IMG/VR virus record: IMGVR_UViG_3300031521_000011
Span: 104,245-168,244 of that record
DNA from: a virus
Length of the DNA: 64,000 nucleotides
Direction: 5' to 3' (one strand)
In this document: piece after piece, positions 13,988 to 64,000 of the stretch
Layout of the letters: each line of letters opens with the position of its first letter
How positions within the stretch are numbered: the first letter of the stretch is position 1
Position numbers and translations under genes: made by a program
Notes under the pieces: model-generated
Seen by the model: the letters and a program-made list of their open reading frames with translations, nothing else
Told to the model about the DNA's origin: nothing
Database searches by the model: none

Positions 13988-13988
13988 T

Positions 13989-49241: not shown

Positions 49242-50240
49242 TCAGATACGCTCCATTGCCCCTAGTATGCTTATTATGCTGAAGTCTATCCCTGCTGTAG
49301 CGTCGTTCGCCTGAGCGCATCCAGCGATCTTAGCGTCTATAGCATCACTAAAGTGCAAAAGCGTGTCCTCCAGCGTCTTTGGCCGCGGCACTCCCCAAAT
49401 ACCATGATGGGATAGAACGCTCTGCTGAAGGTCACGAAGCTGCTCGGCATCCAAGCCGTCAGCACCAAGGCTGTCGTTGATGTCGTCAGAGAAGCTGATA
49501 AAGGTGAATCTATGGTCCATCAGCACGTTTTTGCGATAGATACCTGTCTTGAACTCATATTCTTTAGTCTTGCAGATATCATGAAGGATTGCTTTGGCGC
49601 GCAGCCGGCTGGGGTTGATGACGGATGATGCGTCAGTGCAGCCGATCAGCGCAGAGTCGCAGTAGCAGTAATTCTGAATTATGCAATCAATCATTGTCAG
49701 CACGCCAAAGGTATGTACGAACAGGCCGCCCTGCTTGTTCTGATGATGTTTACTGGCAGCTACGCAGGTTGTGAAGTCTTTCCAGCGTTCTCTCTCTTCT
49801 GCGCTTTGATAGACTTCTCCACCATCCTGGTAGCCTATCGCCGCTCGTACAAAGCGCTGGTACGGCTGATCCAATGCGGCAACAATCCTGCCAAAACACT
49901 CCCACATGCTTTCAGGTATGTCGTATTTTGCGATGTATAGCGACATATCCTCTTTCATCGGATCCAGAACTTCAAAACCCTCAGGATTAATTTGTCTCTT
50001 TCCTTGATACTCACCCACCGCCCCGATGACGCGAATGAGATCGCCTTGCTTGAGTTTCTCATTGCGCTCTTCGACCTTTTTCCATACAGGAAACTCTATG
50101 ACAGCATCCGAGTCGCCAAGTAGGATTGTGAGGTACTGGGTGCTATTCGCCCCATATGACCTAAGAGACTTGCTTTGAATAACTCCATTAACATCACAGT
50201 AGGAGTTCAGTGGTGCATCGAATATTTCACTTATTCGCAT
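49242..50240 (-). CDS. OB-fold + HD-domain nuclease (YhaM/Cbf1-like 3'-5' exoribonuclease)
   Basis: AASKHHQ..GGLFVHT, ILHDICK, SHHG, LHFSDAIDAK; start ATG 50240 after GGAGG. Confidence 0.8.
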   Translation of the reverse strand: MRISEIFDAPLNSYCDVNGVIQSKSLRSYGANSTQYLTILLGDSDAVIEFPVWKKVEERNEKLKQGDLIRVIGAVGEYQGKRQINPEGFEVLDPMKEDMSLYIAKYDIPESMWECFGRIVAALDQPYQRFVRAAIGYQDGGEVYQSAEERERWKDFTTCVAASKHHQNKQGGLFVHTFGVLTMIDCIIQNYCYCDSALIGCTDASSVINPSRLRAKAILHDICKTKEYEFKTGIYRKNVLMDHRFTFISFSDDINDSLGADGLDAEQLRDLQQSVLSHHGIWGVPRPKTLEDTLLHFSDAIDAKIAGCAQANDATAGIDFSIISILGAMERI

Positions 50241-50263
50241 ATGTATCCTCCAAAAAATAGAAT

Positions 50264-50294
50264 TTGCCGGGTACGATAGGTTCGTACCCGGCAA
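50264..50294 (-). terminator. Rho-independent terminator
   Basis: 13-bp stem TTGCCGGGTACGA / TCGTACCCGGCAA with a T-rich tail on the - strand. Confidence 0.65.
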
Positions 50295-50299
50295 TGTTA

Positions 50300-51352
50300 T
50301 CAGGCTGCGAGCTTCAATTCAAGTATTGTTCCGGCGAATCTTTCCATGTCCAGTCTGGTTTCGTAGGGATATGCCTGGGCGGCTGCCGTAATGGCCGAGA
50401 TTATGCCATACTTGGATGTATCGGGATTCATGGCATATTTTTCCATTATTTTATTTCTGATACCTTCGGTGAAATTGTTGTTTTTCTTCTCGATGAGGTT
50501 GATGAGAATGCCTGTGGGGTTCACAAGAATCTCATTGCGGCTATCAGCAAACAGCTGAACCTGGCGGCCGCCTTCAGCCAGAGCTATCTGGGTGGCTGCT
50601 TTGAATTCCGCCATCAGATCAGCAGGGTCGCCGAGATGGCGCTTATTGAAGAGAGGCTTGCCGCCAATAGGACGGAAGCAACCATTCCGGCACCACTGGT
50701 CATGAACGATAAGCTCCAGGCGAGCATTGAAGTTTCCGGTTTCGCCGTTGGCGCAGTGCAGCCCGGCGAAGAAGATGTTCGGCTTGCCGTCCGGAGTTTG
50801 GCCAGCATCAAGATATATCTTATCAAGCAGCAGGCGGGCATTGAACATATCTTCACTGAAGCTGTAATCATCAATCAGATAGCTCGTGCCGGCGATGGCT
50901 TCATTGAAGGCTGGGACAACATCCTTATTGTCCATAATGCCATACTTGCTCGAAAGGAAAGCCCGGGCCACCTGGTTGTCTCCTTCAGTGCGCGCGCGAA
51001 TCAACACCTCACTATTGCCGCCCTCGTTCATATACTGCTCTTTCCAGTAATCGAAATGGGGCTGCAGAAGCTCAACAGGGCACTTCTTGGCATACTGGGC
51101 CGGTATGCCAACCTTTGACATGAGCTGGGTGAAGGAATGGGGCGTTGTATCCATTACCCTCTTGCCGGTGAGGTCCACGATTTCAATGGCGCCCGTTATG
51201 CCATTATTGGATAACTGGAGGCCGCTGATATCTGTTTTGAAGTCATACTTGCCAGCGTCATCGGCGGCGACTCTCTCAATCACCTTGTCGAACTTCTCCT
51301 GCTTGGCTGCCCTCTCCCCTGGGGTCATTGCATTGATGTTTTTGATATTCAT
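50300..51352 (-). CDS. DUF932/DUF945-family protein
   Basis: ARAFLSSKY..MDN, NGETG, WCRNG. Confidence 0.7.
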   Translation of the reverse strand: MNIKNINAMTPGERAAKQEKFDKVIERVAADDAGKYDFKTDISGLQLSNNGITGAIEIVDLTGKRVMDTTPHSFTQLMSKVGIPAQYAKKCPVELLQPHFDYWKEQYMNEGGNSEVLIRARTEGDNQVARAFLSSKYGIMDNKDVVPAFNEAIAGTSYLIDDYSFSEDMFNARLLLDKIYLDAGQTPDGKPNIFFAGLHCANGETGNFNARLELIVHDQWCRNGCFRPIGGKPLFNKRHLGDPADLMAEFKAATQIALAEGGRQVQLFADSRNEILVNPTGILINLIEKKNNNFTEGIRNKIMEKYAMNPDTSKYGIISAITAAAQAYPYETRLDMERFAGTILELKLAA

Positions 51353-52028: not shown

Positions 52029-52050
52029 AAGCTGCAGTATACTGCAGCTT
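52029..52050 (-). terminator. 22-bp perfect palindrome, probable terminator after the Leu tRNAs
   Basis: AAGCTGCAGTA|TACTGCAGCTT followed by ATTTTATT on the - strand. Confidence 0.55.
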
Positions 52051-52057
52051 TAATTTT

Positions 52058-52133
52058 TGGTGCGGGTGGTGGGACTCGAACCCACGGATAGCCGCTTTTG
52101 AGGCGGCCGCGTCTGCCGTTGCGCCACACCCGC
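52058..52133 (-). tRNA. tRNA-Leu(CAA), short variable arm
   Basis: GCCGC-CT CAA AA-GCGGC; Leu-type D arm; TTCGA; ACCA; 76 nt. Confidence 0.85.
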
Positions 52134-52134
52134 A

Positions 52135-52221
52135 TGGTAGGGGATGCGGGATTTGAACCCGCACGACCTCTCAGTCAGTGGATTTTAAGTCCCCTGCGTC
52201 TGCCAATTTCGCCAATCCCCC
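52135..52221 (-). tRNA. tRNA-Leu(TAA)
   Basis: CT TAA AA loop, long V arm, ACCA. Confidence 0.92.
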
Positions 52222-52225
52222 TTAT

Positions 52226-52708
52226 CTACTTCAAATACCTTTGCTTGCACTTCAGTTTAGGATATTGTTCAAATAAATCCCAAATGGGAATCCTATTTGA
52301 TAGCAATGCTTTATCAATCTCACTCTTTGTGCAAACCGCGATCTCAATTGTACTACCTGTTGGCACATCATGTCCGGAGGATATGAACTTAATACCTTCT
52401 TCGCTGACGTATAATCGAGTACTGCCCAAATGATGACCGTCCATAACTCGGTTAGCCATGTCATTAATGCAGCCGCAAACCAGATACCCAGTATCTCCGG
52501 TATAATCACAGTTTAAGGCCCGCATAATATACCTGGTGCCCTTCTTTTTATCTGCTCGATATATCATCTGTTCAAGCACTGGGGTAATTGGATTTTCCCA
52601 AGCCCTCTTTCCTTGAGACCATTCAGCGAAATTAATTTCAGAATCAAATTCGGCAATCAATTTTTCCATATCATTCTCCTTTATCCTCATAGCAGGTACC
52701 ACCACCAT
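52226..52708 (-). CDS. Hypothetical protein (start uncertain, probably ATG 52669)
   Basis: AAGGAG SD before MEKLIAEF. Confidence 0.5.
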   Translation of the reverse strand: MVVVPAMRIKENDMEKLIAEFDSEINFAEWSQGKRAWENPITPVLEQMIYRADKKKGTRYIMRALNCDYTGDTGYLVCGCINDMANRVMDGHHLGSTRLYVSEEGIKFISSGHDVPTGSTIEIAVCTKSEIDKALLSNRIPIWDLFEQYPKLKCKQRYLK

Positions 52709-52891
52709 TCCTCTTCAAACCACTTATTCACAAGTTCCTTGTCAGCCTTATCTTGCTTCACCAATTCTTTTAGAAATGCGATACCTTCCTCTTCACTTAC
52801 CTCTACACCGAAGAGCGTCCAGGGTCGTGGATTCTCGACTATTTTAGGATTGTCATTTTCCATTCATTGCCTCCTAAAAACAAACAATTAT

Positions 52892-52969
52892 AGGACCCGG
52901 AGGAATTCGGACCCTCGACTTCCTGCCCCGTACGTTAGGCTGGCACTCTATCCACTGAGCTACGGGCCC
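52892..52969 (-). ncRNA. tRNA-like RNA, Arg-type D arm, enlarged anticodon loop
   Basis: GGGCCCG TAGCTCAGTGGATAGAGT..CCAGCC-10 nt-GGCAGG..GAGGG TCCGAAT TCCTC CGGGTCC. Confidence 0.6.
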
Positions 52970-52982
52970 GAGGGGAGCCCGA

Positions 52983-53948
52983 TTACTCGGGCGCCTTTGT
53001 GTTTGAATTTGATAATTTAACCAACGCCTGAAGATTGTCTGTATGACAAAGTATTCTTGACTTATCCTCATGGCTAAGATTTTTTCTGGTAAGTGCATCC
53101 GAACATAGGCAGGCGATGGCGAACAGGATTGATTGCCTGGTATCCTCATCCTCAACAATTGGTATGATCTTGCTTTGCTTCTGGATAGTGGGTGCCATAT
53201 TCGCTTTGAGAACATTTATGGTGTTCATGATATCGGGTACCGATTCAAGCATGAGCTCCTTGTAGAATCCCTCATAGTCATAGGTGATCTTATCCAGCGG
53301 CTTAGATTCGATATCCTCCACATACTTGGTAAGCAGTTCGTAGCTCATCCTGTATGCATGGAAGCTGTGAGCAGTGTGAGTATAGCTACCAACTGGATAT
53401 CCCATCTCTTCCGCCACCCGGCGCTGCAGGGCAATGAATCCGACTGCATTCATGTAGGTGGCCCTGACGGCATCGTTGCTTCTCATCATTACCTGCATAT
53501 TCAGCCTTCCATCCCTATAAAGGAATTGGATGCTCTGCAGGCAGGCCGGATCTTTGTTTATGGAGTCAACTGCAAAATCCCTGATGCCCATTACCGCGCG
53601 CCGGGTATCCGCATTGCGCCTGAGTTCACTGTAAAGCCATGGGAGCTGTTTTTCAAAGCGGTTATGATAGGTATACTCCCAGCAGAGGCCGTCGCCAATC
53701 TTGAAATCCAGCACGCCATCCACAATTTCCATTGTGTACTGCTGCAGCTCCCGGTGACCTCCCGGGAACAGCCTGCTGATGAATGGCTCTGCCGTGGCAT
53801 TCTCCACAAACATTGTCATTCCGATTTCCTTGATATCCGTATTATAGTCGGGACACGGATAAATTGGACCCTCCCTCTCCAGTACCACGAGCGCTTTGTG
53901 GTATGCCTCAGGTAGATTTGGCGCTTCGACGAAGTGATGTCTGTACAT
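52983..53948 (-). CDS. thyA: Thymidylate synthase (archaeal-type ThyA / dUMP hydroxymethylase-like)
   Basis: YTYHNRF, DTRRAV, DPACLQ, MRSNDA..YMN, SFHAY. Confidence 0.82.
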   Translation of the reverse strand: MYRHHFVEAPNLPEAYHKALVVLEREGPIYPCPDYNTDIKEIGMTMFVENATAEPFISRLFPGGHRELQQYTMEIVDGVLDFKIGDGLCWEYTYHNRFEKQLPWLYSELRRNADTRRAVMGIRDFAVDSINKDPACLQSIQFLYRDGRLNMQVMMRSNDAVRATYMNAVGFIALQRRVAEEMGYPVGSYTHTAHSFHAYRMSYELLTKYVEDIESKPLDKITYDYEGFYKELMLESVPDIMNTINVLKANMAPTIQKQSKIIPIVEDEDTRQSILFAIACLCSDALTRKNLSHEDKSRILCHTDNLQALVKLSNSNTKAPE

Positions 53949-53969
53949 TAGATCGCTCCTTTCTTATTT

Positions 53970-54120
53970 TAAATAGGGTATACGGTAGTCTGGCTCTCAA
54001 CGGGGTTCGGACCCGTACTCAACGACAATGCGTCAGTCCTTCCAATTGGGCTATGAGATAAATTGAGTCTCTGTTCTTGATGCAGAAACCACAATCCCAG
54101 ACTACCGTATACCCTATTTA
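53970..54120 (-). ncRNA. 151-nt element: 24-bp perfect terminal inverted repeat enclosing a degenerate tRNA
   Basis: TAAATAGGGTATACGGTAGTCTGG (53970-53993) / reverse complement (54097-54120); inside are D-like and T-like arms and GCCA. Confidence 0.6.
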
Positions 54121-54128
54121 TTTTTAAA

Positions 54129-54217
54129 TGGCGGAAGTAGTAGGACTCGAACCCACAGGCCCTTTCGGGCTCACCGGTTTTCAAGACCGGCTCCTTAACC
54201 AATTCGGACATACTTCC
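54129..54217 (-). tRNA. tRNA-Ser(TGA)
   Basis: CCGGT CT TGA AA ACCGG, long V arm, GCCA. Confidence 0.95.
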
Positions 54218-54228
54218 AAAAAGCAAAA

Positions 54229-54316
54229 TGGTGCGCCGGGAAGGATTTGAACCTCCGTACCCCGAAGGGAGCAGGTTTACAGCCTGCCGCCATTGACCAG
54301 ACTCGGCCACCGACGC
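54229..54316 (-). tRNA. tRNA-Tyr(GTA)
   Basis: GCAGG CT GTA AA CCTGC, ACCA. Confidence 0.95.
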
Positions 54317-54319
54317 ATA

Positions 54320-54405
54320 TGGTGCGAGAGATGGGACTTGAACCCACACGGCCTTTCGGTCACCAGCCCCTCAAACTGGCGCGGCTGCCATTACGCCACC
54401 CTCGC
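54320..54405 (-). tRNA. tRNA-Leu(GAG)
   Basis: CCAGT TT GAG GG GCTGG, long V arm. Confidence 0.93.
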
Positions 54406-54409
54406 AAAC

Positions 54410-54486
54410 TGGCGGCTCCAGGGAGACTCGAACTCCCGACCTCTGCCGTGACAGGGCAGCGCGATAACCAACTTCGCTATGGAGTC
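54410..54486 (-). tRNA. tRNA-Asp(GTC)
   Basis: CTGCC CT GTC AC GGCAG, GCCA. Confidence 0.93.
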
Positions 54487-54489
54487 AAA

Positions 54490-54738
54490 TTACTGATTGG
54501 GTTTTCGTGACCACTTAAAGATACCTTCAAAGTTTAAATAGATGAAGAAGAGGATTCCAACGCCCTGTGCCCAGTTCCGGGTTGCGACGTCAAAAGCTAT
54601 TGTACATGCATTTGCGATTAAAAACAAGTAGAAGCCCTTTGAATTTTTTCTGTTGATGAAAATTGAACCTGCGATGCTGAAAATGGTGGAAACCCATAGT
54701 GCTACCTGGAGAATGTCTTGTGTTGTCATTTCTTCCAT
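54490..54738 (-). CDS. PnuC-like small membrane protein
   Basis: Three TM segments; RKNSKGFYLFLIAN..WAQ..LNFEGIFKW. Confidence 0.55.
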   Translation of the reverse strand: MEEMTTQDILQVALWVSTIFSIAGSIFINRKNSKGFYLFLIANACTIAFDVATRNWAQGVGILFFIYLNFEGIFKWSRKPNQ

Positions 54739-54908
54739 CCTACCCCACTTTTTCTATTCTTTTTTCTTTTTATATTGACAATAATACAGGCTCCAAGAAG
54801 AGCAGCAATTAGCGCAACAATAACACCAATATCAATGATGACCAAGAATAAGAGTTGATCCACAATTTTAACCAAATGCATCTTTTTACCTCCTATTTGA
54901 TTTTAGAA

Positions 54909-55004
54909 TGCACCCAGCTGCCGGGCTCGAACCGACATACTCCCGTATCCACGATGATCAGTCATGAGTCGTTGGAGTTCTAGGCCAATTGATTTAAACT
55001 GGGA
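54909..55004 (-). ncRNA. Degenerate tRNA-like RNA with expanded anticodon region
   Basis: CCCAGTT/AGCTGGG acceptor; GTCGG TTCGAGC CCGGC T arm. Confidence 0.45.
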
Positions 55005-55009
55005 TAAAT

Positions 55010-55085
55010 TGGAGCTCCGGATAGGAATCGAACCTACAACCTCCTGATTACAAATCAGGCGCTCTGCCAGTTGAGCTACCGGAGC
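55010..55085 (-). tRNA. tRNA-Thr(TGT)
   Basis: CCTGA TT TGT AA TCAGG, TCCA. Confidence 0.95.
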
Positions 55086-55086
55086 A

Positions 55087-55315
55087 TGGTACCGGGTGTT
55101 GTCGCACATCCGGCAAATCGCCTTTTCTATATACGAGCCGGCCGGCTGCATACACAGAAGGGCTGCATCACCATACTTACTGCATTAGCCGGCCGGCCTA
55201 CAGGTTTTCTGGATCGCGGTTGCCCTGTTGGTGCCACCCGAGTAGACGCCGAGCCACTCTTTCCGATGGTATTTTCTTACCACCACCCCTACGCTTGGGC
55301 TAGGATGACATGTAA
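55087..55315 (-). ncRNA. Candidate ~230-nt structured RNA ending in ACCA
   Basis: 11-bp GCCGGCCGGCT stem (55137-55147 / 55187-55197) and other hairpins; fills the gap between two tRNAs. Confidence 0.35.
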
Positions 55316-55392
55316 TGGTGCTACCTGATGGGATCGAACCAACGACCTCTCGCGTATCAGGCGAGCGCTCTAACCAGCTGAGCTACAGTAGC
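55316..55392 (-). tRNA. tRNA-Ile(GAT)
   Basis: CTCGC CT GAT AC GCGAG; one acceptor and one T-stem mismatch. Confidence 0.85.
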
Positions 55393-55397
55393 ATATT

Positions 55398-55464
55398 TGG
55401 CGAGGCATGCTTGGGGAGAAAGCACACCCCGCCGGCGCTTGGGAAAGAGGAGAATACTGCCTCA
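55398..55464 (-). ncRNA. CCA-ending tRNA-minihelix-like RNA with pyrimidine-rich loops
   Basis: GAGGCA..TGCTT-TCTCCCC-AAGCA-TGCCTC-G-CCA. Confidence 0.4.
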
Positions 55465-55474
55465 CAGAGGAGGC

Positions 55475-55552
55475 TGGTGGATCTTCTCCGATTCGGACGG
55501 AGGACCTATCGGTTATGAGCCGACTGCTCTGACCAGGCTGAGCTAAAGATCC
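55475..55552 (-). tRNA. tRNA-Ile2(CAT, lysidine type)
   Basis: GGATCTTTAGCTCAG..GG CT CAT AA CC..; body resembles Firmicute Ile2 rather than Met. Confidence 0.85.
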
Positions 55553-55891
55553 ATGTTGTAAATGCATTGTGGCTCGAATCGTGCTCTTATTGTACACTGT
55601 TCGAGGAATGTATTCAAGATAGAAATAGAGTCTGTCAATAACATTGCAAACTTTTCCTTCAAGGTGCTCTTCATCAATGGTCGTAGGTTAAAACCATCAA
55701 TTTACTTTTTCACCCTGCTCTATACCTCGCCATATGTACGAGATATAATGCGTTCGCAAGAGGCCATCGACAGAACTCTATAACCCGGTCTGTTCCCGGA
55801 GCCAGAGATATTTTGCAGCACGTTTCGGCAGTACAAGTACCGGTGCGCGGGAGTCTGCGTCCTTTTAGCAAACGCAGAGTCTCTACCCAAC

Positions 55892-55966
55892 TGGAGCGGG
55901 TGATGGGACTCGAACCCACACAACCAGCTTGGAGGGCTGGTCTTCTAGCCGTTGAATTACGCCCGC
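55892..55966 (-). tRNA. tRNA-Gly(TCC)
   Basis: GCGGGCG acceptor, CCAGC CC TCC AA GCTGG (C33), TCCA. Confidence 0.88.
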
Positions 55967-55969
55967 GTG

Positions 55970-56662
55970 TTACTGTTTAATATACTCAAGATAGCTCTTC
56001 GAGTCAATACCCCTTGGCCCTTTTGTTCCACGGGTACCTACCGGGCAGCCGGGATATTTTGCATCGCACTCTCGGCAGACATCTTTCTCACCACGAGGAT
56101 AAGAATCACGCAGTGGTATCGTCCTTCCGCAGTCCGAGCATTCCACAACAAGCCCCATAGGTTCGTCGTCATCATCCAGGTCGCAATCCATTTCCTCCGC
56201 AGCCATCGTGTATGGGCAGACGTTACTGTTTTCGTTCATAGGCCTCTCGTCAACTATTTCCTTTAACCGCCTGAGTTCACATTTGTCCTGATCTCCCAGG
56301 CAGCCCAGGCAGCGCATGGCTGATGCCTCTAGCAATTCTTTCACCAAAGGCTTCGATATAACCATATTCTGTCCCTTGTTTTCGATATAGTTTACGCCTG
56401 GAACGAACATCTGAATTTCAACCTTTTGACTATCCTTCATCATTTGAGCGGCAAATCCCTTTTGATTCTCCTCCATGCGTTTCAGGATTGCCTCAAGAAC
56501 TATGGAAACATTCGCCTCTGCAGACACCAGGAGATCGTGTTCCGATTCAGGAACAATTCGATTTTTCCATTGCTGAATAATATCATGAGCTTGGCCCATA
56601 AAGCCGACCATGAATAGGAAATTATTACGATCTTGCCGATTTAAATAGGATTTCAATTTCAT
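55970..56662 (-). CDS. Conserved-looking phage protein with C-terminal Cys motifs
   Basis: CLGC..C..CPY, CSDC..CREC; SD GGGGAG. Confidence 0.6.
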   Translation of the reverse strand: MKLKSYLNRQDRNNFLFMVGFMGQAHDIIQQWKNRIVPESEHDLLVSAEANVSIVLEAILKRMEENQKGFAAQMMKDSQKVEIQMFVPGVNYIENKGQNMVISKPLVKELLEASAMRCLGCLGDQDKCELRRLKEIVDERPMNENSNVCPYTMAAEEMDCDLDDDDEPMGLVVECSDCGRTIPLRDSYPRGEKDVCRECDAKYPGCPVGTRGTKGPRGIDSKSYLEYIKQ

Positions 56663-56687
56663 GTCAGAATCACTCCCCTTGTTGTTT

Positions 56688-56720
56688 AAAAATCCCCGGG
56701 CGCAGCAGACGCCCGGGGAT
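56688..56720 (-). terminator. Rho-independent terminator
   Basis: ATCCCCGGGCG-loop-CGCCCGGGGAT-TTTT. Confidence 0.75.
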
Positions 56721-56807
56721 ATGCATTACACACTTAGTTTTTAAAAAATCATAAGGTCCGGCATATTCGCACAGCAGCTCCCTTGCCGGGCCATAAATTG
56801 AGTGTAC

Positions 56808-56984
56808 TTACCCATACGAAGATGGCGGCTGAGCAACCAGAGCTTGGCGCAACAGCGGCCGAACGTCGTAGTACTCGACTTGTGTTCGAGCATTATATTG
56901 AAGGACATGCTCGCCGCCCTTGCTGCGCAATACAAAGGCGCCAGGATTAAAAAGATGTTCGGTAATTAATAACCAATAGAACAA
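56808..56984 (-). CDS. Small protein (58 aa, TTG start, not in ORF track)
   Basis: AAAGGAGG SD, then MFYWLLITEHLFNPGAFVLRSKGG... Confidence 0.5.
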   Translation of the reverse strand: MFYWLLITEHLFNPGAFVLRSKGGEHVLQYNARTQVEYYDVRPLLRQALVAQPPSSYG

Positions 56985-57003
56985 CTCTGACGCCTCCTTT
57001 AAG

Positions 57004-57342
57004 TTATATCCTTGTAATTCGATCTACCAGTGACGGGTCCGGTATCTTATAGAGTGGGGTTTCGGGGATAATCTTGATCGAGATCATCTTCATTATTTCC
57101 TGGGCGAGAGCTATCTTGAGTTGTTCTTGCCCGTTCCCACGCCAGCCATTTCCATTATCCTCAAACCACTGCAGCGCGGCCTTGTTCATCATGGCCTGCA
57201 ATGTCGATTCGGAGAAGTGGTGAGCGATATAATCCTTCGCCACGGTGGCCACAGATTCCTTCGTCCATTCCTCGATATCTGCTTTCGTGATACCAAGCTC
57301 GTTGGCCATGTAGTTCTTGAACATTGTGTATCTCTCTGACAT
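57004..57342 (-). CDS. Hypothetical protein
   Basis: AAGGAG SD. Confidence 0.6.
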   Translation of the reverse strand: MSERYTMFKNYMANELGITKADIEEWTKESVATVAKDYIAHHFSESTLQAMMNKAALQWFEDNGNGWRGNGQEQLKIALAQEIMKMISIKIIPETPLYKIPDPSLVDRITRI

Positions 57343-57356
57343 CTCTGACGGCTCCT

Positions 57357-57602
57357 TTACTGTTTAGATTCTTTTTCCAGCTCTTCAGCATTCTCCATCA
57401 TGTAGGTACTGACATCTATATATCCTTTAACGGTTTGCTCTTCGGCAAAGCCTCTGAACTTTACTCTTGCTGGAAATGCACTGACTGCGATACCGTCTTT
57501 CACCTGAATAACAATGGCCCATCCAAATGTATGGAGGATCATATTTATCCACCACAGCATCCCGCATTCCTTGAATTCCTGCCATGTCTTTTCCTTTATC
57601 AT
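57357..57602 (-). CDS. Conserved-looking small phage protein
   Basis: WQEFKECGMLWWINMILHTFGWAI..FRGF. Confidence 0.65.
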   Translation of the reverse strand: MIKEKTWQEFKECGMLWWINMILHTFGWAIVIQVKDGIAVSAFPARVKFRGFAEEQTVKGYIDVSTYMMENAEELEKESKQ

Positions 57603-58204
57603 CGCTTTTCCTCCCTCATATTTGTTTCGAGATATGGAATTGTTGGGATGTATTCCTCGGTATACTCACTATATTGGGTCATATTGATTGCATGGCCATC
57701 GGATTCAATGAATCCAAATATGCCATACAGATTATCTAACATAACTCTGTACACGAGCATATTGGGGCTATAAAGTTTACTCTTGAAGATGATCATATCG
57801 GATCCGCTGTAAAATTTGTGTAGCGCTGCGGCCACGGCGGCGGAGCGGCTGATACCAGCCCAGCAATGAATGAGGATATAATCGACGTCATTCGTCTTGA
57901 TGTGCTTATCTACAAACTCAATGATACGCCGGGCCATCAGGCAATTAAAGAGAACGTAGTTGAGGTGGAGGCCTTCTGTTCGGCCTGTCCTCTCACATCT
58001 TTCGACCATCTCCTGGTCGACGTCGCTGAAGAGCTCGGTGATGACATCTACACAGACGTCATTTGGTGTAAATATGAATCCATTTCCTATATCGGGTTCC
58101 TGGATGGAGATGAGGGCATATTTCTTCCCGGCAAATTCCGGGAACTGCTCCGGATGCGTGTAGAAGCATTTTGCCTGAATAAAACCGAATACTGCTGTTT
58201 GCAT
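57599..58204 (-). CDS. Cys-dependent (CX5R) phosphatase, PTP/DSP-like
   Basis: ILIHCWAGISRSAAVA; PNMLVY. Confidence 0.85.
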   Translation of the reverse strand: MQTAVFGFIQAKCFYTHPEQFPEFAGKKYALISIQEPDIGNGFIFTPNDVCVDVITELFSDVDQEMVERCERTGRTEGLHLNYVLFNCLMARRIIEFVDKHIKTNDVDYILIHCWAGISRSAAVAAALHKFYSGSDMIIFKSKLYSPNMLVYRVMLDNLYGIFGFIESDGHAINMTQYSEYTEEYIPTIPYLETNMREEKR

Positions 58205-58344
58205 AATACCTCACCAGAATAAATTTCCACCATCATCGGGAGGATCGAATTTGATGTTATATCTGTCGTCCAGACCTCTCCACCATTTAGCAATCTTCTT
58301 AAGCAAGTTAATGATTTTCTTCATGGCTACCTCCTTCGTAAATA

Positions 58345-58425
58345 TGTCAGGGGAATGCGGTGTCGAACCGCTTATCACCTCCCAGGGATGCATACTCCTG
58401 GGCGCTTTCCGTCAGCTACTCCCCT
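58345..58425 (-). ncRNA. tRNA-like RNA, 6-bp anticodon stem with 10-nt loop
   Basis: AGGGGAG/TTCCCCT; CCCAGG-AGTATGCATC-CCTGGG; GCGG TTCGACA CCGC. Confidence 0.55.
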
Positions 58426-58618
58426 ATGTGAGCCGACCTATTGTCGGCAGTCACTGCGTTATGACATGACCCATGCGATTGATCGCAGCCAACCCGTAGC
58501 TACGGCCCATGTCTGCCGTCCGCACCTTCTCCGAACTTCTTGCGGTGTTTGCCGTTCACATATCGTCCTGCGTTTATATTTGCATCTCTGCATCGACGCA
58601 AGCTCGGTTGGCAAAGAG

Positions 58619-58696
58619 TGGTGGAGGGAGTGGAGATCGAATCCGCGACTTCCCGGGTTTCTGGCCCGGTTGCTCTACCAGCTGAGCTATCCCTCT
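58619..58696 (-). ncRNA. Non-canonical tRNA (AGA loop, C33, short V arm, A1-C72 mismatch)
   Basis: GCTCAGCTGGTAGAGC; CCGGG CCAGAAA CCCGG; TTCGA; ACCA. Confidence 0.6.
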
Positions 58697-58865
58697 ACGA
58701 AAGCCGGTCTTTCCCGGCAGCATAGCTAACATCCTTAACGTACTTCCTGCTCATGCATAGCGGCATTACGAGCAATCAACCGCGTGTACGCCTGCGGGGC
58801 CTCCTTTATGTGCCTTCGTAAGCCATTCCAGATCTTTGATACTACAGCGATCGGCACCGGAATTG

Positions 58866-58939
58866 TGGTGGAAGGTGCAAGAACACGAACTTGCTTCTAC
58901 GAATATTATCCGTATGTCTTCCCGCTAAACGACCCCTCC
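58866..58939 (-). ncRNA. Non-canonical tRNA (AAT loop, 8-nt T loop)
   Basis: TACGG ATAATAT TCGTA; GCAAG TTCGTGTT CTTGC; ACCA. Confidence 0.5.
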
Positions 58940-59212
58940 ACGATGAATACCAACACATACGACATCTATCTTATCTGTCTCTGGATTATAGGGTTTTAGG
59001 AAACATTTCTTTGGCCAGCCTTGCTCACCCCTTTCTATCCTATAGTCATATATGTCTCCACCTCCGGATACTGGACAACTGAACCAATTTTCGCAATACC
59101 CGCCTCCATCATTCTTTGTTGCATTCGGGCATTCAATGCATGAGGTAACTATTTGAGGTGGCCTTCTCGTGATTTGTTCAGGGCAATACTTCGGCTTTCT
59201 GTCCATGAGCAC
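58925..59212 (-). CDS. Small Cys-rich protein
   Basis: SCIECP..YC..WPKKC; SD AGAGG. Confidence 0.45.
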   Translation of the reverse strand: MLMDRKPKYCPEQITRRPPQIVTSCIECPNATKNDGGGYCENWFSCPVSGGGDIYDYRIERGEQGWPKKCFLKPYNPETDKIDVVCVGIHRGGVV

Positions 59213-59220
59213 TTACCTCT

Positions 59221-59493
59221 CTATATAATTTCCGGGAAACAAGGTGGAAGAGCCACGGTCTTTTTAACAACGATTGTTGTTTGCTTGCTGCCAGACTCAT
59301 AACGACGCCATTCTTCACCCACTCTAGTAGTTTCAACTAGATCAGATACCGAAGATACGAACAGCAGGTCCGTGGATTCCTGGATCATCCTACACAGCAG
59401 GTCTTTCATGCTCTGGTCTAACTCTGTGTTCGGGGGCATCGATGCTATACTTCTGCTTATAGCCAATTCATTCTGATCAATTTTGATTTTCAT
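59221..59493 (-). CDS. Hypothetical protein
   Basis: GGAGGTG SD. Confidence 0.6.
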   Translation of the reverse strand: MKIKIDQNELAISRSIASMPPNTELDQSMKDLLCRMIQESTDLLFVSSVSDLVETTRVGEEWRRYESGSKQTTIVVKKTVALPPCFPEII

Positions 59494-59516
59494 GTATTCA
59501 CCTCCCTCTTATAGTT

Positions 59517-59735
59517 TTAAAGCACACGTGAATCTTTGGATTTTTTCTTAAGGCGGATAATTGTATACATATTACCTGCAACAGGTTTTCCGCCAGGCTC
59601 TCCATCCATAACGAACAAATCACGCCAAGAGCTGAATTCTATCTCATCTGCTTCTTGAGTAAGCTCACACACCATATTCTTGCAGTGTTGGAGTCTTTCC
59701 TGATTTTCCTTTTCACTGAGTTCGCCTTCAGGCAT
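59517..59735 (-). CDS. Hypothetical protein
   Basis: AGGAGG SD. Confidence 0.6.
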   Translation of the reverse strand: MPEGELSEKENQERLQHCKNMVCELTQEADEIEFSSWRDLFVMDGEPGGKPVAGNMYTIIRLKKKSKDSRVL

Positions 59736-59771
59736 ATCAAATTCCTCCTTATAATTTTAAAGGTTGATGCA

Positions 59772-59886
59772 GTGGAGTGGCCGGACTTGAACCGGCGACC
59801 TCCGGGGTGATGGGTGCCGCGCGTGCACACCCACCGGCCCGGTGCTCTAACCATCACAAGGACTTCCAATACTGAGCTACACTCCT
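59772..59886 (-). ncRNA. tRNA-like RNA with D-loop insertion and greatly extended anticodon hairpin
   Basis: GGAGTG TAGCTCAG..GGTTAGAGC; CCGGG..GGTGGGTG-loop-CACCCATC..CCCGG; GCCGG TTCAAGT CCGGC. Confidence 0.6.
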
Positions 59887-59894
59887 CCACACTA

Positions 59895-59965
59895 GGGCGG
59901 TAGATGGAATTGAACCACCGACTCGGCTTTCGCGGCCCGCTCTACCAAACTGAGCTATACCACCC
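59895..59965 (-). ncRNA. tRNA-like RNA with truncated anticodon arm, G-1:C73
   Basis: Canonical acceptor/D/T arms; anticodon arm reduced to GGC-CGCGAAA-GCC. Confidence 0.6.
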
Positions 59966-59975
59966 ATAAAAGGAT

Positions 59976-60048
59976 TGGGCGAGAGAGGGCCTCGAACCCT
60001 CGACTGACGGCTATACCGTTTGCTCTACCAACTGAGCTATCTCGCCCA
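59976..60048 (-). ncRNA. tRNA-like RNA with truncated anticodon arm, G-1:C73
   Basis: GGCGAGA/TCTCGCC; ACGG-TATAG-CCGT; GAGGG TTCGAGG CCCTC. Confidence 0.6.
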
Positions 60049-60221
60049 TGCGCTCCTGCCGTCAACTCACATAAGTGCGTGTCGGCAGGAGCCATTGCCG
60101 CTGTTTCCCGGCTGCCAGGCCCGGCTACTGGGATTAAAGGTCATACCAGCCACGGAGCCATTGAGCAGGTTACTTTCTCTTTGACCGCCTTCCAAAGAAC
60201 CTTGCATAAAGAATGTCAGAC

Positions 60222-60295
60222 TGGAGCCGAGGGATGGAATCGAACCACCAACCTTCAGTTACGCGCCGCTGCTCTACCATTGAGCTACCGTTTGG
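60222..60295 (-). ncRNA. Degenerate tRNA-like RNA (D and T arms intact)
   Basis: GCTCAATGGTAGAGC; GGTGG TTCGATT CCATC; TCCA. Confidence 0.5.
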
Positions 60296-60305
60296 AGCTT
60301 TACGC

Positions 60306-60374
60306 ACCGCACGAGCGGGACTCGAACCCGCAACCGACGGTTTCACTGACGCTCTACCATTGAGCTACCCAAGC
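60306..60374 (-). ncRNA. Degenerate tRNA-like RNA (D and T arms intact)
   Basis: GCTCAATGGTAGAGC; GCGGG TTCGAGT CCCGC. Confidence 0.5.
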
Positions 60375-60378
60375 ATGT

Positions 60379-60402
60379 GCCGGTCTATTTCCCGGCTGCC
60401 AG
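60379..60402 (-). repeat. Dispersed hairpin motif CTGGCAGCCGGGAAA(YA)GACCGGC (also 55785-55805, 58703-58722, 60097-60118)
   Basis: Four related copies, all within the tRNA region. Confidence 0.65.
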
Positions 60403-60410
60403 TAACCTAT

Positions 60411-60734
60411 CTATCTCCACCCCTGACCATTCTTTCCCTGTATTCCTGGGCTTTCGCCTGATTCGGTCTGGTGGAAATAGAAATTAGCATCGGATGGAAG
60501 CATGAATTCGATCATGCAAAAGTTAGCAACGTCGAGCAAGAATTCTAAATTACCAGTTTCCCTGAACTTGGCCAAATACTTATCAATGCTTTTATCAGCG
60601 CTAAACGGCTTGTCCTGCCCGTAATTATCAGCTAACTTTCCGTATTTATAGAATGAAAACTGCATCCTATTCTTTCGTAATTGGTCAAACTCTTCAGAAT
60701 ATTCTGTAGATAAAATTCGTTCAGTCTCCGTCAT
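60411..60734 (-). CDS. Conserved-looking phage protein (possibly MazG/all-alpha NTP-PPase-like)
   Basis: RMQFSFYKYG..ETGNLEFLLDVANFCMIEF. Confidence 0.5.
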   Translation of the reverse strand: MTETERILSTEYSEEFDQLRKNRMQFSFYKYGKLADNYGQDKPFSADKSIDKYLAKFRETGNLEFLLDVANFCMIEFMLPSDANFYFHQTESGESPGIQGKNGQGWR

Positions 60735-60752
60735 GTTCTGCCTCCACGTAAA

Positions 60753-61055
60753 CTATTTGACGATCATCCAATCCAGGCCGAAGATATCCTCGGCCGTGAA
60801 TAGAACTCCTGGATGCCACTTGCCGTCCGATGTGAACATTGCAAGATATGGTTGGCTATCCAGCGGCGTATCTTCGCCGATATGCTTTGCTGTTCTGTCG
60901 TTTACTTTGGGACCCGGCTCCTGACGACTATGTGGCGGAAGTTGAAGCGCCGGCATCACGACTATGAATTTCATTCTGGCATCCCATCCAGATCGAGCGA
61001 GTTTGTGGCCATCCTTCAGGAATGCAATGGCCACTTCGAGACCGAATCCTTCCAT
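60753..61055 (-). CDS. DUF2829 / Tad2-like nucleotide-sponge protein
   Basis: AIAFLKDGHKLARSGW..PYLAM..EDIFGLDWMIV; start ATG 61055 after AGGAGG. Confidence 0.72.
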   Translation of the reverse strand: MEGFGLEVAIAFLKDGHKLARSGWDARMKFIVVMPALQLPPHSRQEPGPKVNDRTAKHIGEDTPLDSQPYLAMFTSDGKWHPGVLFTAEDIFGLDWMIVK

Positions 61056-61212
61056 GCTTAGACCTCCTTCACTGTGTGTCATGTTTGACATTGCTTTGTC
61101 ATGTTGATAGTATTAACTTGCTGACGAAGGTGAATTTTGACTTCGTCAGCCTTCAATACGTCGTTTCGAGTCACTACCCCATTATAGTACATAGGAGGGG
61201 CGATATTCAAGT

Positions 61213-61926
61213 ATGAATAAATCTATTGAGACACCAGATGGCATTATAGTCACTAATATCAGTAGAGCCAATTCCATAGAGGAGTATTATAAGAATCCAA
61301 ACAAATGCCGACACTGTGGATCTGTTATTAGGGTGAAAGAGAACCGAAAGGTATCAGAAGCCAGGAGAAAGGTGTTTTGTGGTTATTCATGCTCTGCATC
61401 TTACAACAATACATCGTCTCCAAAGAGGAAAGCGAAGAAATCTGGCAAATGTCTTGAATGCGGTATTGTCATCACGTACACACAAGCGCCAAATGGTAAG
61501 TACAATCGACCAAAATATTGTGCTAAATGCTGCCATAAAGTAGGGCTTAGAAACAGATATAGCTCTCAAAATTACAAATGCATCACTACGAATGAAACCA
61601 CTAAAGGTGATATGCGCCTTGCGCTGAAACACGGAAGCCTATTCAAACCTTACATCGTAAAGAATGCCTCTAAGGCTTATCGCGATGCTGGGAAGCCTAA
61701 TATGTGCCTCATTTGCGGATATCCGCGCATTGAAGTTTGTCATATTCAATCCGTTGCGTCTTTTTCAGACACAACTCCGATTTCCGTGATAAATAATCCA
61801 GATAATTTAGTTGGCCTCTGTCCAAACCATCACAAGGAATACGACAGAGGCCAACTCACACTACCTATAGCTGTAGAATATTCAGTGGTAGATATGGCAG
61901 ATGTGAATCAGCCTGGGGCACAGTGA
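61213..61926 (+). CDS. HNH endonuclease with Zn-finger repeats, antisense to surroundings
   Basis: CLICG..EVCHI..NLVGLCPNHHKEYDRG; N-terminal CxxC...FCGYSC; AGGAGG SD. Confidence 0.85.
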   Translation: MNKSIETPDGIIVTNISRANSIEEYYKNPNKCRHCGSVIRVKENRKVSEARRKVFCGYSCSASYNNTSSPKRKAKKSGKCLECGIVITYTQAPNGKYNRPKYCAKCCHKVGLRNRYSSQNYKCITTNETTKGDMRLALKHGSLFKPYIVKNASKAYRDAGKPNMCLICGYPRIEVCHIQSVASFSDTTPISVINNPDNLVGLCPNHHKEYDRGQLTLPIAVEYSVVDMADVNQPGAQ

Positions 61927-62421
61927 TTTGGATGGCCTCATCTTCAGCAAGAAAGCCTCGAGGCTTTTGTGATAATAAGGAGTATTTTGGGTGGCTGTGG
62001 GGAAATCATATACCCATAATGAACCATCCTCATTGAATTTGGCTGCAACAGTATGGAATACCATTCCTCCGAAGTGGAATGTGATAATGCTAACCAGTGG
62101 AATTTGACTTTCCACGGTATGCAGAACGCGATATCCACGGTGTTTAAAGTAATCATCAATACCGGTAGGGCTAACTCCAATTACAATGGGCTCTCCCTGC
62201 TTTTCGTAATACTCCACCAGCTGCCTAAAGTCTGAGAAGTATACACTTCCAATTACTTGTTCGGCGTTCCATGTTGCCGTCACGCCACACCCGCGATCTG
62301 AGATGTTAAGTCCAACTGGAGATTTTTTACCGAAGAAACCAAGGAAAGCATCAATACCGATATAAAAGCTTCCAAATGGAATTGAACTGATACTTGGGTC
62401 GTTCTGAAATAGTAATTTCAT
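61882..62421 (-). CDS. Hypothetical protein
   Basis: GGAGG SD before ATG 62421 (the longer ORF call runs through tRNA-Pro). Confidence 0.55.
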   Translation of the reverse strand: MKLLFQNDPSISSIPFGSFYIGIDAFLGFFGKKSPVGLNISDRGCGVTATWNAEQVIGSVYFSDFRQLVEYYEKQGEPIVIGVSPTGIDDYFKHRGYRVLHTVESQIPLVSIITFHFGGMVFHTVAAKFNEDGSLWVYDFPTATQNTPYYHKSLEAFLLKMRPSKSLCPRLIHICHIYH

Positions 62422-62443
62422 TTCTTCCTCCAGATAAAGGATA

Positions 62444-62520
62444 TGGTCGGGATGATAGGATTTGAACCTACGGCCCCGCGCTCCCAAAGTGCGTGCGCTA
62501 CCAGACTGCGCTACATCCCG
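62444..62520 (-). tRNA. tRNA-Pro(TGG)
   Basis: CGGGATG acceptor, TT TGG GA loop, ACCA. Confidence 0.93.
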
Positions 62521-62740: not shown

Positions 62741-63103
62741 TTATGCATAGGGAGTAGTATTTTCACGGATCACCTTTTCCATCTGTCGCTTGATTTCAAT
62801 TTTTTCCCTAAGAGCCGCCTCATACATCTCTTTCCTTGCAGGACATGGCTCACAGAGAAATTTGTAGTATGGATCAATGGCCAGGAAATCTAAGTACAGC
62901 TTCAGAAGAACATAATCAGATGTCCCCTTTGTCGGGTCAAGCTTCTTACAGAATGTATTAAATAACCTCTCTACATCAAGACCGACCAGTTCAAGGTTTT
63001 TTTGCATTTCTGTTATGGCAGCTGTCTCCTTAAGGATTGATTCGGCGCGCCGGCTAAGATCTATAGTCATGAGCATCTCTGGCATATTAATCACCTCCAT
63101 CAA
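62741..63103 (-). CDS. Coiled-coil hypothetical protein
   Basis: Directly downstream of sbcD; start probably ATG 63085. Confidence 0.5.
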   Translation of the reverse strand: MMEVINMPEMLMTIDLSRRAESILKETAAITEMQKNLELVGLDVERLFNTFCKKLDPTKGTSDYVLLKLYLDFLAIDPYYKFLCEPCPARKEMYEAALREKIEIKRQMEKVIRENTTPYA

Positions 63104-63992: not shown

Positions 63993-64000
63993 CTTGTTCG

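What the first reader, a model, noticed from the sequence alone, without database searches (positions are those of the whole stretch)
52892..60374. About ten tRNA-like RNAs that preserve the D/T elbow but remodel the anticodon arm: candidate decoy or processing array
Elements at 52892, 53991, 54909, 58345, 58619, 58866, 59772, 59895, 59976, 60222 and 60306 mostly keep paired T stems with TTCRA-like loops and AGCTCA..GGTAGAGC-type D arms. Their anticodon arms range from a 3-4-bp stub to a ~13-bp hairpin, often still base-paired. Random pseudogene decay would not be expected to spare the elbow so consistently. Inference: they act through shape rather than decoding, as decoys for tRNA-targeting defence toxins/anticodon nucleases, ligands for T-box/Rel/Ro-type elbow readers, or RNase P/Z punctuation marks that cut the polycistron.
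Basis: partly seen in the sequence, partly recalled or inferred. Interest (0 to 1): 0.75.

Follow-up and report, generated by a model that had tools for sequence, protein, structure and literature searches.

The report
Non-decoding tRNA look-alikes, phage island
Among the dozen real tRNA genes of an uncultured 168-kb peat phage lie about ten tRNA-shaped genes that cannot read codons; they match the 'tRNA-like stable RNAs of unknown function' long annotated in phage T5, and are probably kept because host tRNA-cutting enzymes still recognise them.

Summary
The observation largely holds. All eleven elements lie on the minus strand of a 10.5-kb tRNA island (52058-62520). Seven reach Rfam's tRNA threshold, one falls below it, and three (B, C, D) are seen only by inspection and folding. 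All keep a T arm and the D-loop GG. Nine lack a decoding anticodon arm. E and F have normal arm geometry. J is a decayed tRNA-Lys(CUU), intact in the closest relative, and may form one composite RNA with K.

Shape is under selection in at least one case. The syntenic counterpart of I in a relative about 30% diverged is also non-decoding. It keeps the D loop and T arm and has compensated acceptor changes.

The best-supported mechanism is inferred, not shown: RNase P/Z-type processing of long island transcripts. All five RNA-to-ORF junctions carry a non-canonical element, and four of those lack an encoded CCA.

The relative encodes Ro60 and eight Y-RNA-like genes, some with tRNA-like modules. 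This genome has neither Ro60 nor their shared end motifs.

The decoy idea is untested. Phage T5's annotated tRNA-like stable RNAs have the same architecture, so this is a new member of a known kind whose function remains unexplained. This scan has already noted tRNA-shaped RNAs in other phages' tRNA clusters.

The parts
52892..52969 (-). A: tRNA-like RNA with a 6-bp anticodon stem (one mismatch) and a 10-nt loop. No encoded CCA. Pair 3:70 is G-U.
   Evidence: Rfam 43.0 bits. Acceptor 7/7, D 4/4, T 5/5. MFE is a cloverleaf. Ends about 28 nt before the start codon at 52863.
53970..54120 (-). B: weak tRNA-like core (53993-54060) enclosed by a perfect 23-bp helix. Its 3' CCA lies inside the helix.
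   Evidence: Fold z -3.85. One of only two perfect inverted repeats of 16 bp or more in the genome. No Rfam hit. Ends 21 nt before the thyA-like start at 53948.
54913..55003 (-). C: canonical T arm (54920-54936), 5-bp acceptor-like closure, long middle arm, no real D arm. The weakest member.
   Evidence: Read from the sequence. T-arm scan. Fold z -0.01. No Rfam hit. Ends 31 nt before the start codon at 54881.
58349..58424 (-). D: cloverleaf with a 3-bp D stem, 6-bp anticodon stem with 10-nt loop, 9-nt variable region and 4-bp T stem. No CCA.
   Evidence: MFE is a cloverleaf, z -2.08. Middle hairpin p 0.016. No Rfam hit. Ends 24 nt before the start codon at 58324.
58619..58696 (-). E: near-canonical tRNA with a 5-bp stem and 7-nt loop, but C at position 33. 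Class I body with a 'Ser' anticodon. Encoded CCA.
   Evidence: Rfam 39.6 bits. 76% identical over 62 nt to the relative's tRNA-Val. Middle hairpin p 0.008.
58866..58939 (-). F: near-canonical tRNA with a normal anticodon arm, 8-nt T loop, 3-nt variable region and encoded CCA. Overlaps the stop codon of the upstream ORF.
   Evidence: Rfam 23.4 bits, below threshold. Fold z -2.58. Middle hairpin p 0.013.
59772..59886 (-). G: tRNA-like RNA with about 17 extra nt in the D loop and an anticodon hairpin of about 16 bp. No CCA.
   Evidence: Rfam 38.9 bits. Fold z -2.05. Middle hairpin p 0.017. Ends 37 nt before the start codon at 59735.
59895..59964 (-). H: perfect acceptor, D and T arms, with a 3-bp anticodon stub and a 7-nt loop that has G at position 33. 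No CCA.
   Evidence: Rfam 42.3 bits. Arms 7/7, 4/4, 5/5. 79% identical over 53 nt to a non-decoding element in the relative, L029:2317-2389.
59977..60046 (-). I: perfect acceptor, D and T arms, with a 4-bp anticodon stem and a 5-nt loop. No CCA.
   Evidence: Rfam 49.4 bits. Fold z -4.94. Its syntenic counterpart L029:13964-14041 is also non-decoding.
60222..60294 (-). J: decayed tRNA-Lys(CUU). The 5' acceptor strand is lost, the anticodon stem is reduced to 3 bp, and positions 33 and 35 are changed. The 3' end still carries CCA.
   Evidence: Aligns with the relative's canonical tRNA-Lys(CUU) and its downstream spacer, 77%. Own acceptor pairs only 2/7. Rfam 29.9 bits, model positions 6-65 only.
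60308..60374 (-). K: D arm identical to J's and a canonical T arm, but no anticodon hairpin and no acceptor of its own. Its 5' strand pairs 6/7 with J's 3' strand, so K and J may be one 153-nt composite RNA.
   Evidence: Rfam tRNA 32.8 bits. YrlA model 38.4 bits across the K-to-J junction, below the gathering score of 69. The MFE of K-J uses the K5'/J3' closure.
60048..60221 (-). Non-coding spacer between J and I that is conserved in the relative. It includes a hairpin and one copy of the island-specific hairpin motif.
   Evidence: Alignment A2. The start codon of the only ORF here is absent in the relative.
52029..52050 (-). The only strong intrinsic terminator of the island, after the last tRNA.
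   Evidence: Conserved in the relative L025.
52058..55966 (-). Ten of the eleven canonical tRNA genes in the island. The eleventh, tRNA-Pro, is at 62444-62520. All encode CCA.

Best explanation
These are tRNA-derived genes that no longer decode. They are still made, folded and cut like tRNAs.

The island is probably read as a few long transcripts that mix tRNAs, tRNA look-alikes and small ORFs. Host RNase P would cut at the 5' side of each look-alike. RNase Z would cut at the 3' side of those without CCA. Both enzymes read the acceptor stem, the T arm and the D/T elbow, and neither needs the anticodon arm (established knowledge).

Selection would therefore hold exactly those parts while the anticodon arm shrinks, grows or is replaced. 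The cuts release neighbouring tRNAs and set the ends of the small-ORF mRNAs. B probably does the same job through its 23-bp helix, as an RNase III-type site.

The excised look-alikes would persist as stable tRNA-shaped RNAs, like T5 RNA1, RNA2 and RNA3. Any further trans-acting role is unknown.

Shown: the structures, their positions, their non-decoding state, conservation of one of them, and decay of another. Inferred: transcription, cleavage and stability.
For: 1. Non-decoding anticodon arms sit beside intact acceptor, T and D features in A, D, G, H and I.

2. I and its syntenic counterpart in a relative (about 69% nucleotide identity across syntenic genes) are both non-decoding. The D loop is identical at 8/8 and the T arm at 14/17. 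The acceptor carries 3 double compensatory changes. The anticodon arms cannot be aligned. H and L029:2317-2389 show the same pattern.

3. The anticodon-arm segments of D, E, F, G and I fold better than shuffles, p 0.008-0.046. This test does not depend on how the elements were found.

4. The phage's own promoter motif does not occur in the island, and there is one strong terminator at its end.

5. All five places where RNA genes give way to an ORF carry a non-canonical element 21-37 nt before the start codon: A, B, C, D and G. Drawing 5 of 5 from 11 non-canonical among 22 elements has hand-calculated p about 0.02.

6. All 11 canonical tRNAs of the island encode CCA. A, C, D and G do not, and B's CCA is buried in its helix. 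From established knowledge of Bacillus subtilis, RNase Z cuts CCA-less precursors and CCA blocks it. The phage's DnaE is closest to those of Clostridia.

7. T5's tRNA region is annotated with RNA1 and RNA2 ('tRNA-like stable RNA with unknown functions') and RNA3. These fold with an acceptor and T arm and an enlarged or altered anticodon arm. RNA3 lies between a tRNA and an ORF.
Against: E, F, H, I and K-J lie inside RNA arrays, where an extra cutting site is not obviously needed.

The junction statistic is post hoc and rests on five cases.

B, C and D are weak tRNA mimics, with no Rfam hit.

Sigma-70-like sites occur at chance frequency. A few could still be real internal promoters, at 56007, 55617 and 61210, which would shorten the transcripts.

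In the relative, tRNA-like modules clearly serve a trans-acting Ro60 system. Processing alone may therefore not be the whole function.
Confidence: 0.4

Rival explanations
1. Trans-acting decoys or sponges. The processed tRNA-shaped RNAs would bind host defence proteins that target tRNA: anticodon nucleases, or toxins that modify the acceptor end. Having no cleavable or normal anticodon loop, they would titrate these proteins away from real tRNAs.
For: The island also carries a Tad2-like anti-Thoeris gene at 60753-61091, so it is an accessory and anti-defence region. H and J share an anticodon loop derived from tRNA-Lys(CUU) with positions 33 and 35 changed. tRNA-Lys is a known nuclease target, and phage tRNAs are known counter-measures (PMC10264068, PMC11464382, PMC11555353; abstracts). 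Shape is conserved without decoding.
Against: All published cases found here are functional decoding tRNAs that replace cleaved ones, not decoys. No tRNA repair genes or nuclease-related genes are present. The anticodon arms share no common design that would fit one target. There are no expression data.
Confidence: 0.17
2. Neutral relics. The island gains and loses tRNA genes quickly, and the elements are dead tRNAs on the way out. The elbow looks spared only because decayed copies are recognisable through their D and T arms.
For: J is a clear pseudogene of a tRNA that is intact in the relative. More distant relatives (L026, L030) have no tRNAs at all between the same flanking genes, so the island is young and fluid. 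An HNH endonuclease gene sits in the island. C and K have poor stems. One cloverleaf (55229-55315) has lost its loop consensus sequences. T5 carries an annotated tRNA pseudogene.
Against: I and its counterpart keep seven acceptor pairs through three double changes while both are already non-decoding. Five anticodon-arm segments are better hairpins than chance. G's long, fully paired insertion is not what decay produces. A, D, H and I have 7/7 acceptor pairs.
Confidence: 0.2
3. Y-RNA-like partners of a Ro60 protein. Since the phage encodes none, the Ro60 would be the host's. The elements would be homologous in role to the relative's Ro60 and Y-RNA system.
For: The relative L029 encodes Ro60 (TROVE 8e-29, Ro60 vWA 5e-11) preceded by eight tandem RNAs with shared ends and covarying stems. 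Three of these carry T-arm/hairpin/D-arm modules that match YrlA at 34-45 bits. The K-to-J junction matches YrlA at 38.4 bits and aligns with those modules. The relative's counterpart of I carries, in its anticodon-arm loop, a perfect copy of the short Ro60-recognition motif of Chen et al. 2014.
Against: The complete, circularly closed genome has no TROVE protein. The array's two shared end motifs occur only at chance level, with one one-mismatch copy of the 3' motif inside the island at 55449-55458. No island element carries the Ro60 motif in its arm. The YrlA score is far below 69 and is driven by generic tRNA arms. The host is unknown.
Confidence: 0.08
4. Some members are working tRNAs with unusual loops. 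E and F would be rare decoders, and A or D would be expanded-loop frameshift or suppressor tRNAs.
For: E and F have normal arm geometry, encoded CCA and discriminator A. ARAGORN calls A, E and I as tRNAs.
Against: E has C at position 33 and a class I body with a serine anticodon. F has an 8-nt T loop and scores 23 bits. A and D have 10-nt loops and I has 5 nt. The assigned anticodons all begin with A, which is rare in bacteria (established knowledge).
Confidence: 0.1

Closest known systems
Phage T5 RNA1, RNA2 and RNA3 ('tRNA-like stable RNA with unknown functions', record NC_005859)
   Same: They lie inside a phage tRNA gene cluster on the tRNA strand. The cluster is interleaved with small ORFs, HNH endonuclease genes and a tRNA pseudogene. 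They have an acceptor stem and a canonical T arm with an enlarged or altered anticodon arm. RNA3 sits between a tRNA and an ORF.
   Different: There is no sequence homology. The T5 RNAs were detected as stable RNAs, whereas expression here is unknown. This island has more of them relative to real tRNAs (about 11 to 11). It also includes short-armed forms (H, I) and a helix-caged form (B).
YrlA-type Y RNAs bound by Ro60/Rsr (Rfam RF02553; Chen et al. 2014, PMC4201824)
   Same: They are tRNA mimicry by non-decoding RNAs, also found in phages beside tRNA genes. M. smegmatis YrlA is cut by RNase P and receives CCA. The closest relative of this phage has such a system.
   Different: This genome has no Ro60 gene and no element carrying the Ro60-recognition motif. 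The arm order is that of a normal tRNA, not permuted, except at the K-to-J junction. The YrlA score of 38 bits is below the gathering score of 69.
Phage tRNAs that evade or replace targets of tRNA-cleaving defences (T5 tRNA-Lys against PARIS, tRNA-Tyr against a retron; PMC10264068, PMC11464382, PMC11555353)
   Same: They are phage tRNA-island genes with altered anticodon loops, in an anti-defence setting.
   Different: Those are working, decoding tRNAs with point changes. Most elements here cannot decode at all.
tRNA punctuation and tRNA-like processing signals (mitochondrial transcripts, MALAT1 mascRNA, phage T4 stable RNAs in its tRNA cluster). This comparison comes from my own knowledge and was not checked here.
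   Same: tRNA-shaped elements are used by RNase P and RNase Z to cut long transcripts. The excised piece may be stable.
   Different: Processing is not shown here. The systems and hosts differ.

Membership tests
Canonical decoding tRNA | 5-bp anticodon stem with a 7-nt loop, U at position 33 and a purine at 37 | tested here: not met
   A, B, C, D, G, H, I, J and K fail on geometry or on position 33. E has C at 33. Only F meets it.
Canonical decoding tRNA | 7-bp acceptor stem, D arm with GG, and T arm with the usual loop | tested here: met
   Met by A, D (3-bp D stem, 4-bp T stem), E, F (8-nt T loop), G, H and I. Not met by J (2/7), K (3/7) or C. Only 5/7 in B.
YrlA / Y RNA | Ro60 (TROVE) gene in the genome, usually within 4 kb on the same strand | tested here: not met
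   No TROVE match at E<=1 in the complete genome. It is present in the relative L029.
YrlA / Y RNA | Score at or above the Rfam gathering threshold for RF02553 | tested here: not met
   38.4 and 31.3 bits against 69.
YrlA / Y RNA | Short Ro60-recognition motif near the 5' end, in a terminal stem | tested here: not met
   No copy lies in any island element. The relative's shared end motifs occur at chance level in the window.
T5-type tRNA-like stable RNAs | Encoded inside a phage tRNA cluster on the tRNA strand | tested here: met
T5-type tRNA-like stable RNAs | tRNA-like fold with an acceptor and T arm but a non-tRNA middle | tested here: met
   for the window. for T5 RNA1, RNA2 and RNA3.
T5-type tRNA-like stable RNAs | Accumulates as a stable processed RNA during infection | not testable with these tools
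tRNA pseudogene | Orthologous to an intact tRNA and carrying disabling, uncompensated lesions | tested here: met
   Met for J only, which aligns with tRNA-Lys(CUU) of L029. Inconclusive for C and K. Contradicted for I, which shows compensated changes.
Defence-evading phage tRNA | Still a decoding tRNA, with substitutions confined to the anticodon loop | tested here: not met
   Arm geometry is changed in nine of eleven elements.

The most novel reading that the evidence does not exclude
The look-alikes are an RNA-based anti-defence arsenal beside Tad2. They would be Ro60-independent tRNA mimics that act in trans, binding and neutralising host proteins that attack tRNAs. Phage tRNA islands would then be where such mimics arise from decaying tRNA genes. 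That would include the permuted modules of Y RNAs, born at junctions of tandem tRNAs like K-J.
Probability: 0.15. Interest if true: 0.8.

Novelty: new member of a known kind. Interest (0 to 1): 0.45.

Why it matters
tRNA-like stable RNAs in phage tRNA clusters are still annotated 'unknown function' in the T5 record. This island packs about as many look-alikes as real tRNAs. It also has a relative that uses similar modules as Y RNAs for its own Ro60.

The pair of genomes therefore gives a concrete place to ask two questions. Are such RNAs only processing signals, or do they also act in trans? And how do tRNA genes turn into tRNA mimics?

There is a practical point too. Automatic annotation would report three false tRNAs here.

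Tried and rejected

2. Relatives through four island or flanking proteins in IMG/VR gave none.

3. The thyA-like gene found 17 metagenome loci at up to 69% identity. They share only that gene and carry no tRNAs, so they are not relatives.

4. Three other contigs of the same phage are 100% identical across the island, so they give no microdiversity.

5. The middle of the relative's island was not recovered. The relative's contigs end inside tRNA genes. A full-library search with the phosphatase-like protein found no ortholog.

6. Pattern scans with the conserved spacer found nothing in viral or genome collections. The relative's Ro60 found no close viral relatives.

7. YrlA membership of K-J was rejected.

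8. The phage genome has no RtcB, RNA ligase or CCA-adding enzyme.

9. PHROGs and Pfam gave no function for the small island ORFs.

10. Thermodynamics alone does not support K-J (z +0.45) or C (z -0.01).

The coordinates of C, and the distances from D and C to their start codons, were counted by hand from the rulers.

Full report
**Setting.** The window is the last 64 kb of a 168,244-bp viral record. A second contig of the same phage bridges the record's two ends, so the genome is complete. ARAGORN and Rfam find 11 canonical tRNA genes on the minus strand between 52058 and 62520, and a twelfth far away in the genome. The phage has no close relative among cultured phages. Its DnaE is closest to those of Clostridia, at 44%.

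**The observation.** All eleven listed elements are on the same strand as the tRNAs.
- The Rfam tRNA model scores seven of them at or above threshold: I 49.4, A 43.0, H 42.3, E 39.6, G 38.9, K 32.8 and J 29.9 bits.
- F scores 23.4 bits, below threshold. B, C and D give no hit.
- Parsing each element arm by arm shows T stems paired at 4/4 to 5/5 (E at 4/5), usual T loops, GG in every D loop, and the standard D arm in seven.

Three corrections are needed. E and F have a normal 5-bp stem and 7-nt loop. J and K have no anticodon hairpin and no acceptor stem of their own. C is weak. ARAGORN mislabels A, E and I as tRNA-Val, tRNA-Ser and tRNA-Tyr.

Two tests avoid it.
- Hairpin test: the segment between the D and T arms folds better than shuffles in D, E, F, G and I (p 0.008-0.046). 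It does not in A, B and H, and not at all in J and K.
- Relative test: two Logan contigs from one sample are syntenic with the window at about 69% nucleotide identity (L025 and L029).

In L029 the conserved spacer that follows tRNA-Lys(CUU) leads to an element at 13964-14041. This corresponds in position to I. It is also non-decoding, with a 7-bp stem closed by a small loop. Its D loop is identical to I's at 8/8 and its T arm at 14/17. Its acceptor differs by three double changes that keep pairing, and its anticodon arm cannot be aligned.

H resembles another non-decoding element, L029:2317-2389. That one has conserved loops, compensated stems and a short arm. So at least the I and H types are kept for their shape.

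J is different. It is the positional and sequence ortholog of the relative's intact tRNA-Lys(CUU), but it has lost its 5' acceptor strand and two loop positions. It is a pseudogene.

K's 5' strand pairs 6/7 with J's 3' strand (hand-calculated chance about 0.013). The minimum-energy fold of the 153-nt K-J unit uses that closure. K and J may therefore be one composite RNA, though its stability is not above shuffles.

**Context that bears on mechanism.**
- The phage's own promoter motif, noted by earlier readers, is absent from the island.
- The only strong terminator is at the island's end, 52029-52050.
- Every place where RNA genes give way to an ORF is occupied by a non-canonical element 21-37 nt before the start codon: A, B, C, D and G. 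ORFs, in contrast, are followed by canonical tRNAs or by A, F or K.
- All 11 canonical tRNAs of the island encode CCA. A, C, D, G, H, I and K do not.

RNase P, RNase Z and the CCA enzyme read the acceptor, T arm and elbow, not the anticodon arm. In Bacillus, RNase Z acts on CCA-less precursors (both points are established knowledge). This fits a picture in which dead tRNA genes are retained as cutting sites, and their excised bodies persist as stable RNAs.

B's perfect 23-bp helix is one of only two such inverted repeats in the genome. It looks like an RNase III-type site doing the same job. None of this processing is shown.

**The Ro60 lead.** Rfam's YrlA model matches the K-to-J junction at 38.4 bits, against a threshold of 69. 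The relative L029 encodes a Ro60 protein (TROVE 8e-29, Ro60 vWA 5e-11). It is preceded by eight tandem RNAs with shared 5' and 3' motifs and covarying inner stems. Three of them carry T-arm/hairpin/D-arm modules, and these align with the K-J junction.

The relative's counterpart of I carries, in its arm loop, a perfect copy of the short motif that Chen et al. 2014 link to Ro60 recognition. The window's genome, however, has no TROVE protein. It lacks the array's motifs beyond chance, and no island element carries the Ro60 motif in its arm. The Ro60 system belongs to the relative, not to this phage.

More distant relatives (L026, L030) have no tRNAs at all between the same flanking genes. The island is therefore young and variable.

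**Other ideas.** The island holds a Tad2-like anti-defence gene, and H and J share a tRNA-Lys-derived loop. This keeps the decoy idea alive. But the published phage counter-measures found here are working tRNAs, and the phage has no RNA repair genes. T-box and Rel readers need an anticodon.

**Comparison with the known.** In phage T5 the same Rfam search gives a similar tail of low scores. The T5 record annotates RNA1 and RNA2 as 'tRNA-like stable RNA with unknown functions' and RNA3 as a putative tRNA-like RNA. It also annotates a tRNA pseudogene, HNH genes and small ORFs, all inside the tRNA region. RNA1, RNA2 and RNA3 fold with an acceptor and T arm and enlarged or altered anticodon arms.

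**Verdict.** This finding is a new member of that known kind, whose function remains unexplained. Earlier notes of this scan also describe tRNA-shaped RNAs in other phages' tRNA clusters, mostly beside Ro60.

Noticed in passing
L029:14139-17045: The closest relative has eight tandem Y-RNA-like genes with shared 5' and 3' end motifs and covarying stems, directly upstream of a Ro60 (TROVE plus Ro60 vWA) gene, inside its tRNA island. Three of them carry permuted tRNA-like modules.
   Followed up: partly
L029:1655-2650: A gene-free, highly structured stretch of about 1 kb holds a chain of T arm, D arm, short anticodon arm, T arm and D arm, plus one more copy of the Y-array 5' motif at 2444. Rfam sees only one tRNA-like hit in it.
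   Followed up: no
window 60379-60396, 60097-60112, 58703-58718, 55784-55800 (minus strand): A small hairpin with a conserved A-rich loop occurs four times in the whole genome, all in the island on the tRNA strand. Three copies lie 4-50 nt upstream of K, I and E. The relative has one at the matching place, with a compensatory stem change.
   Followed up: partly
window 55086-55315 and 55393-55474 (minus strand): The spacers between tRNA-Thr, tRNA-Ile and tRNA-Met hold more structured RNAs. One is a CCA-ended cloverleaf without D or T loop consensus (55229-55315, z -1.9). One is a 12-bp GC-rich helix. One is a 14-bp hairpin (z -4.3).
   Followed up: partly
window 60753-61091 (minus) and 61213-61926 (plus): A Tad2-like anti-Thoeris gene and an HNH endonuclease gene on the opposite strand lie inside the island. 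Both are conserved in the relative.
   Followed up: partly
window 49242-51352 (minus): Two adjacent 350-aa paralogs border the island. One has an OB fold plus an HD domain, resembling the 3' exoribonuclease YhaM by recall. They may trim the CCA-encoding tRNAs.
   Followed up: no
window 52983-53948 (minus): The thymidylate-synthase-like gene is 321 aa, whereas its relatives are about 253 aa. Its nearest relatives (69%) sit in unrelated, tRNA-free contexts, so it looks horizontally acquired.
   Followed up: partly
window 57599-58204 (minus): A dual-specificity-phosphatase-like protein lies just downstream of D. It has no close ortholog in a library of 1.8 billion representatives. Some enzymes of this fold act on RNA 5' ends (recall).
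   Followed up: partly
L025:76-171: The relative has a third Leu-type class II tRNA gene with C at position 33, which ARAGORN does not call. The window has only two Leu genes at this spot.
   Followed up: no
window 63087-64000 and genome start: The SbcD-like gene is cut by the record's end. Contig L031 joins the end to the start of the record with about 100 bp of overlap, so the genome is circularly permuted or terminally repeated.
   Followed up: yes
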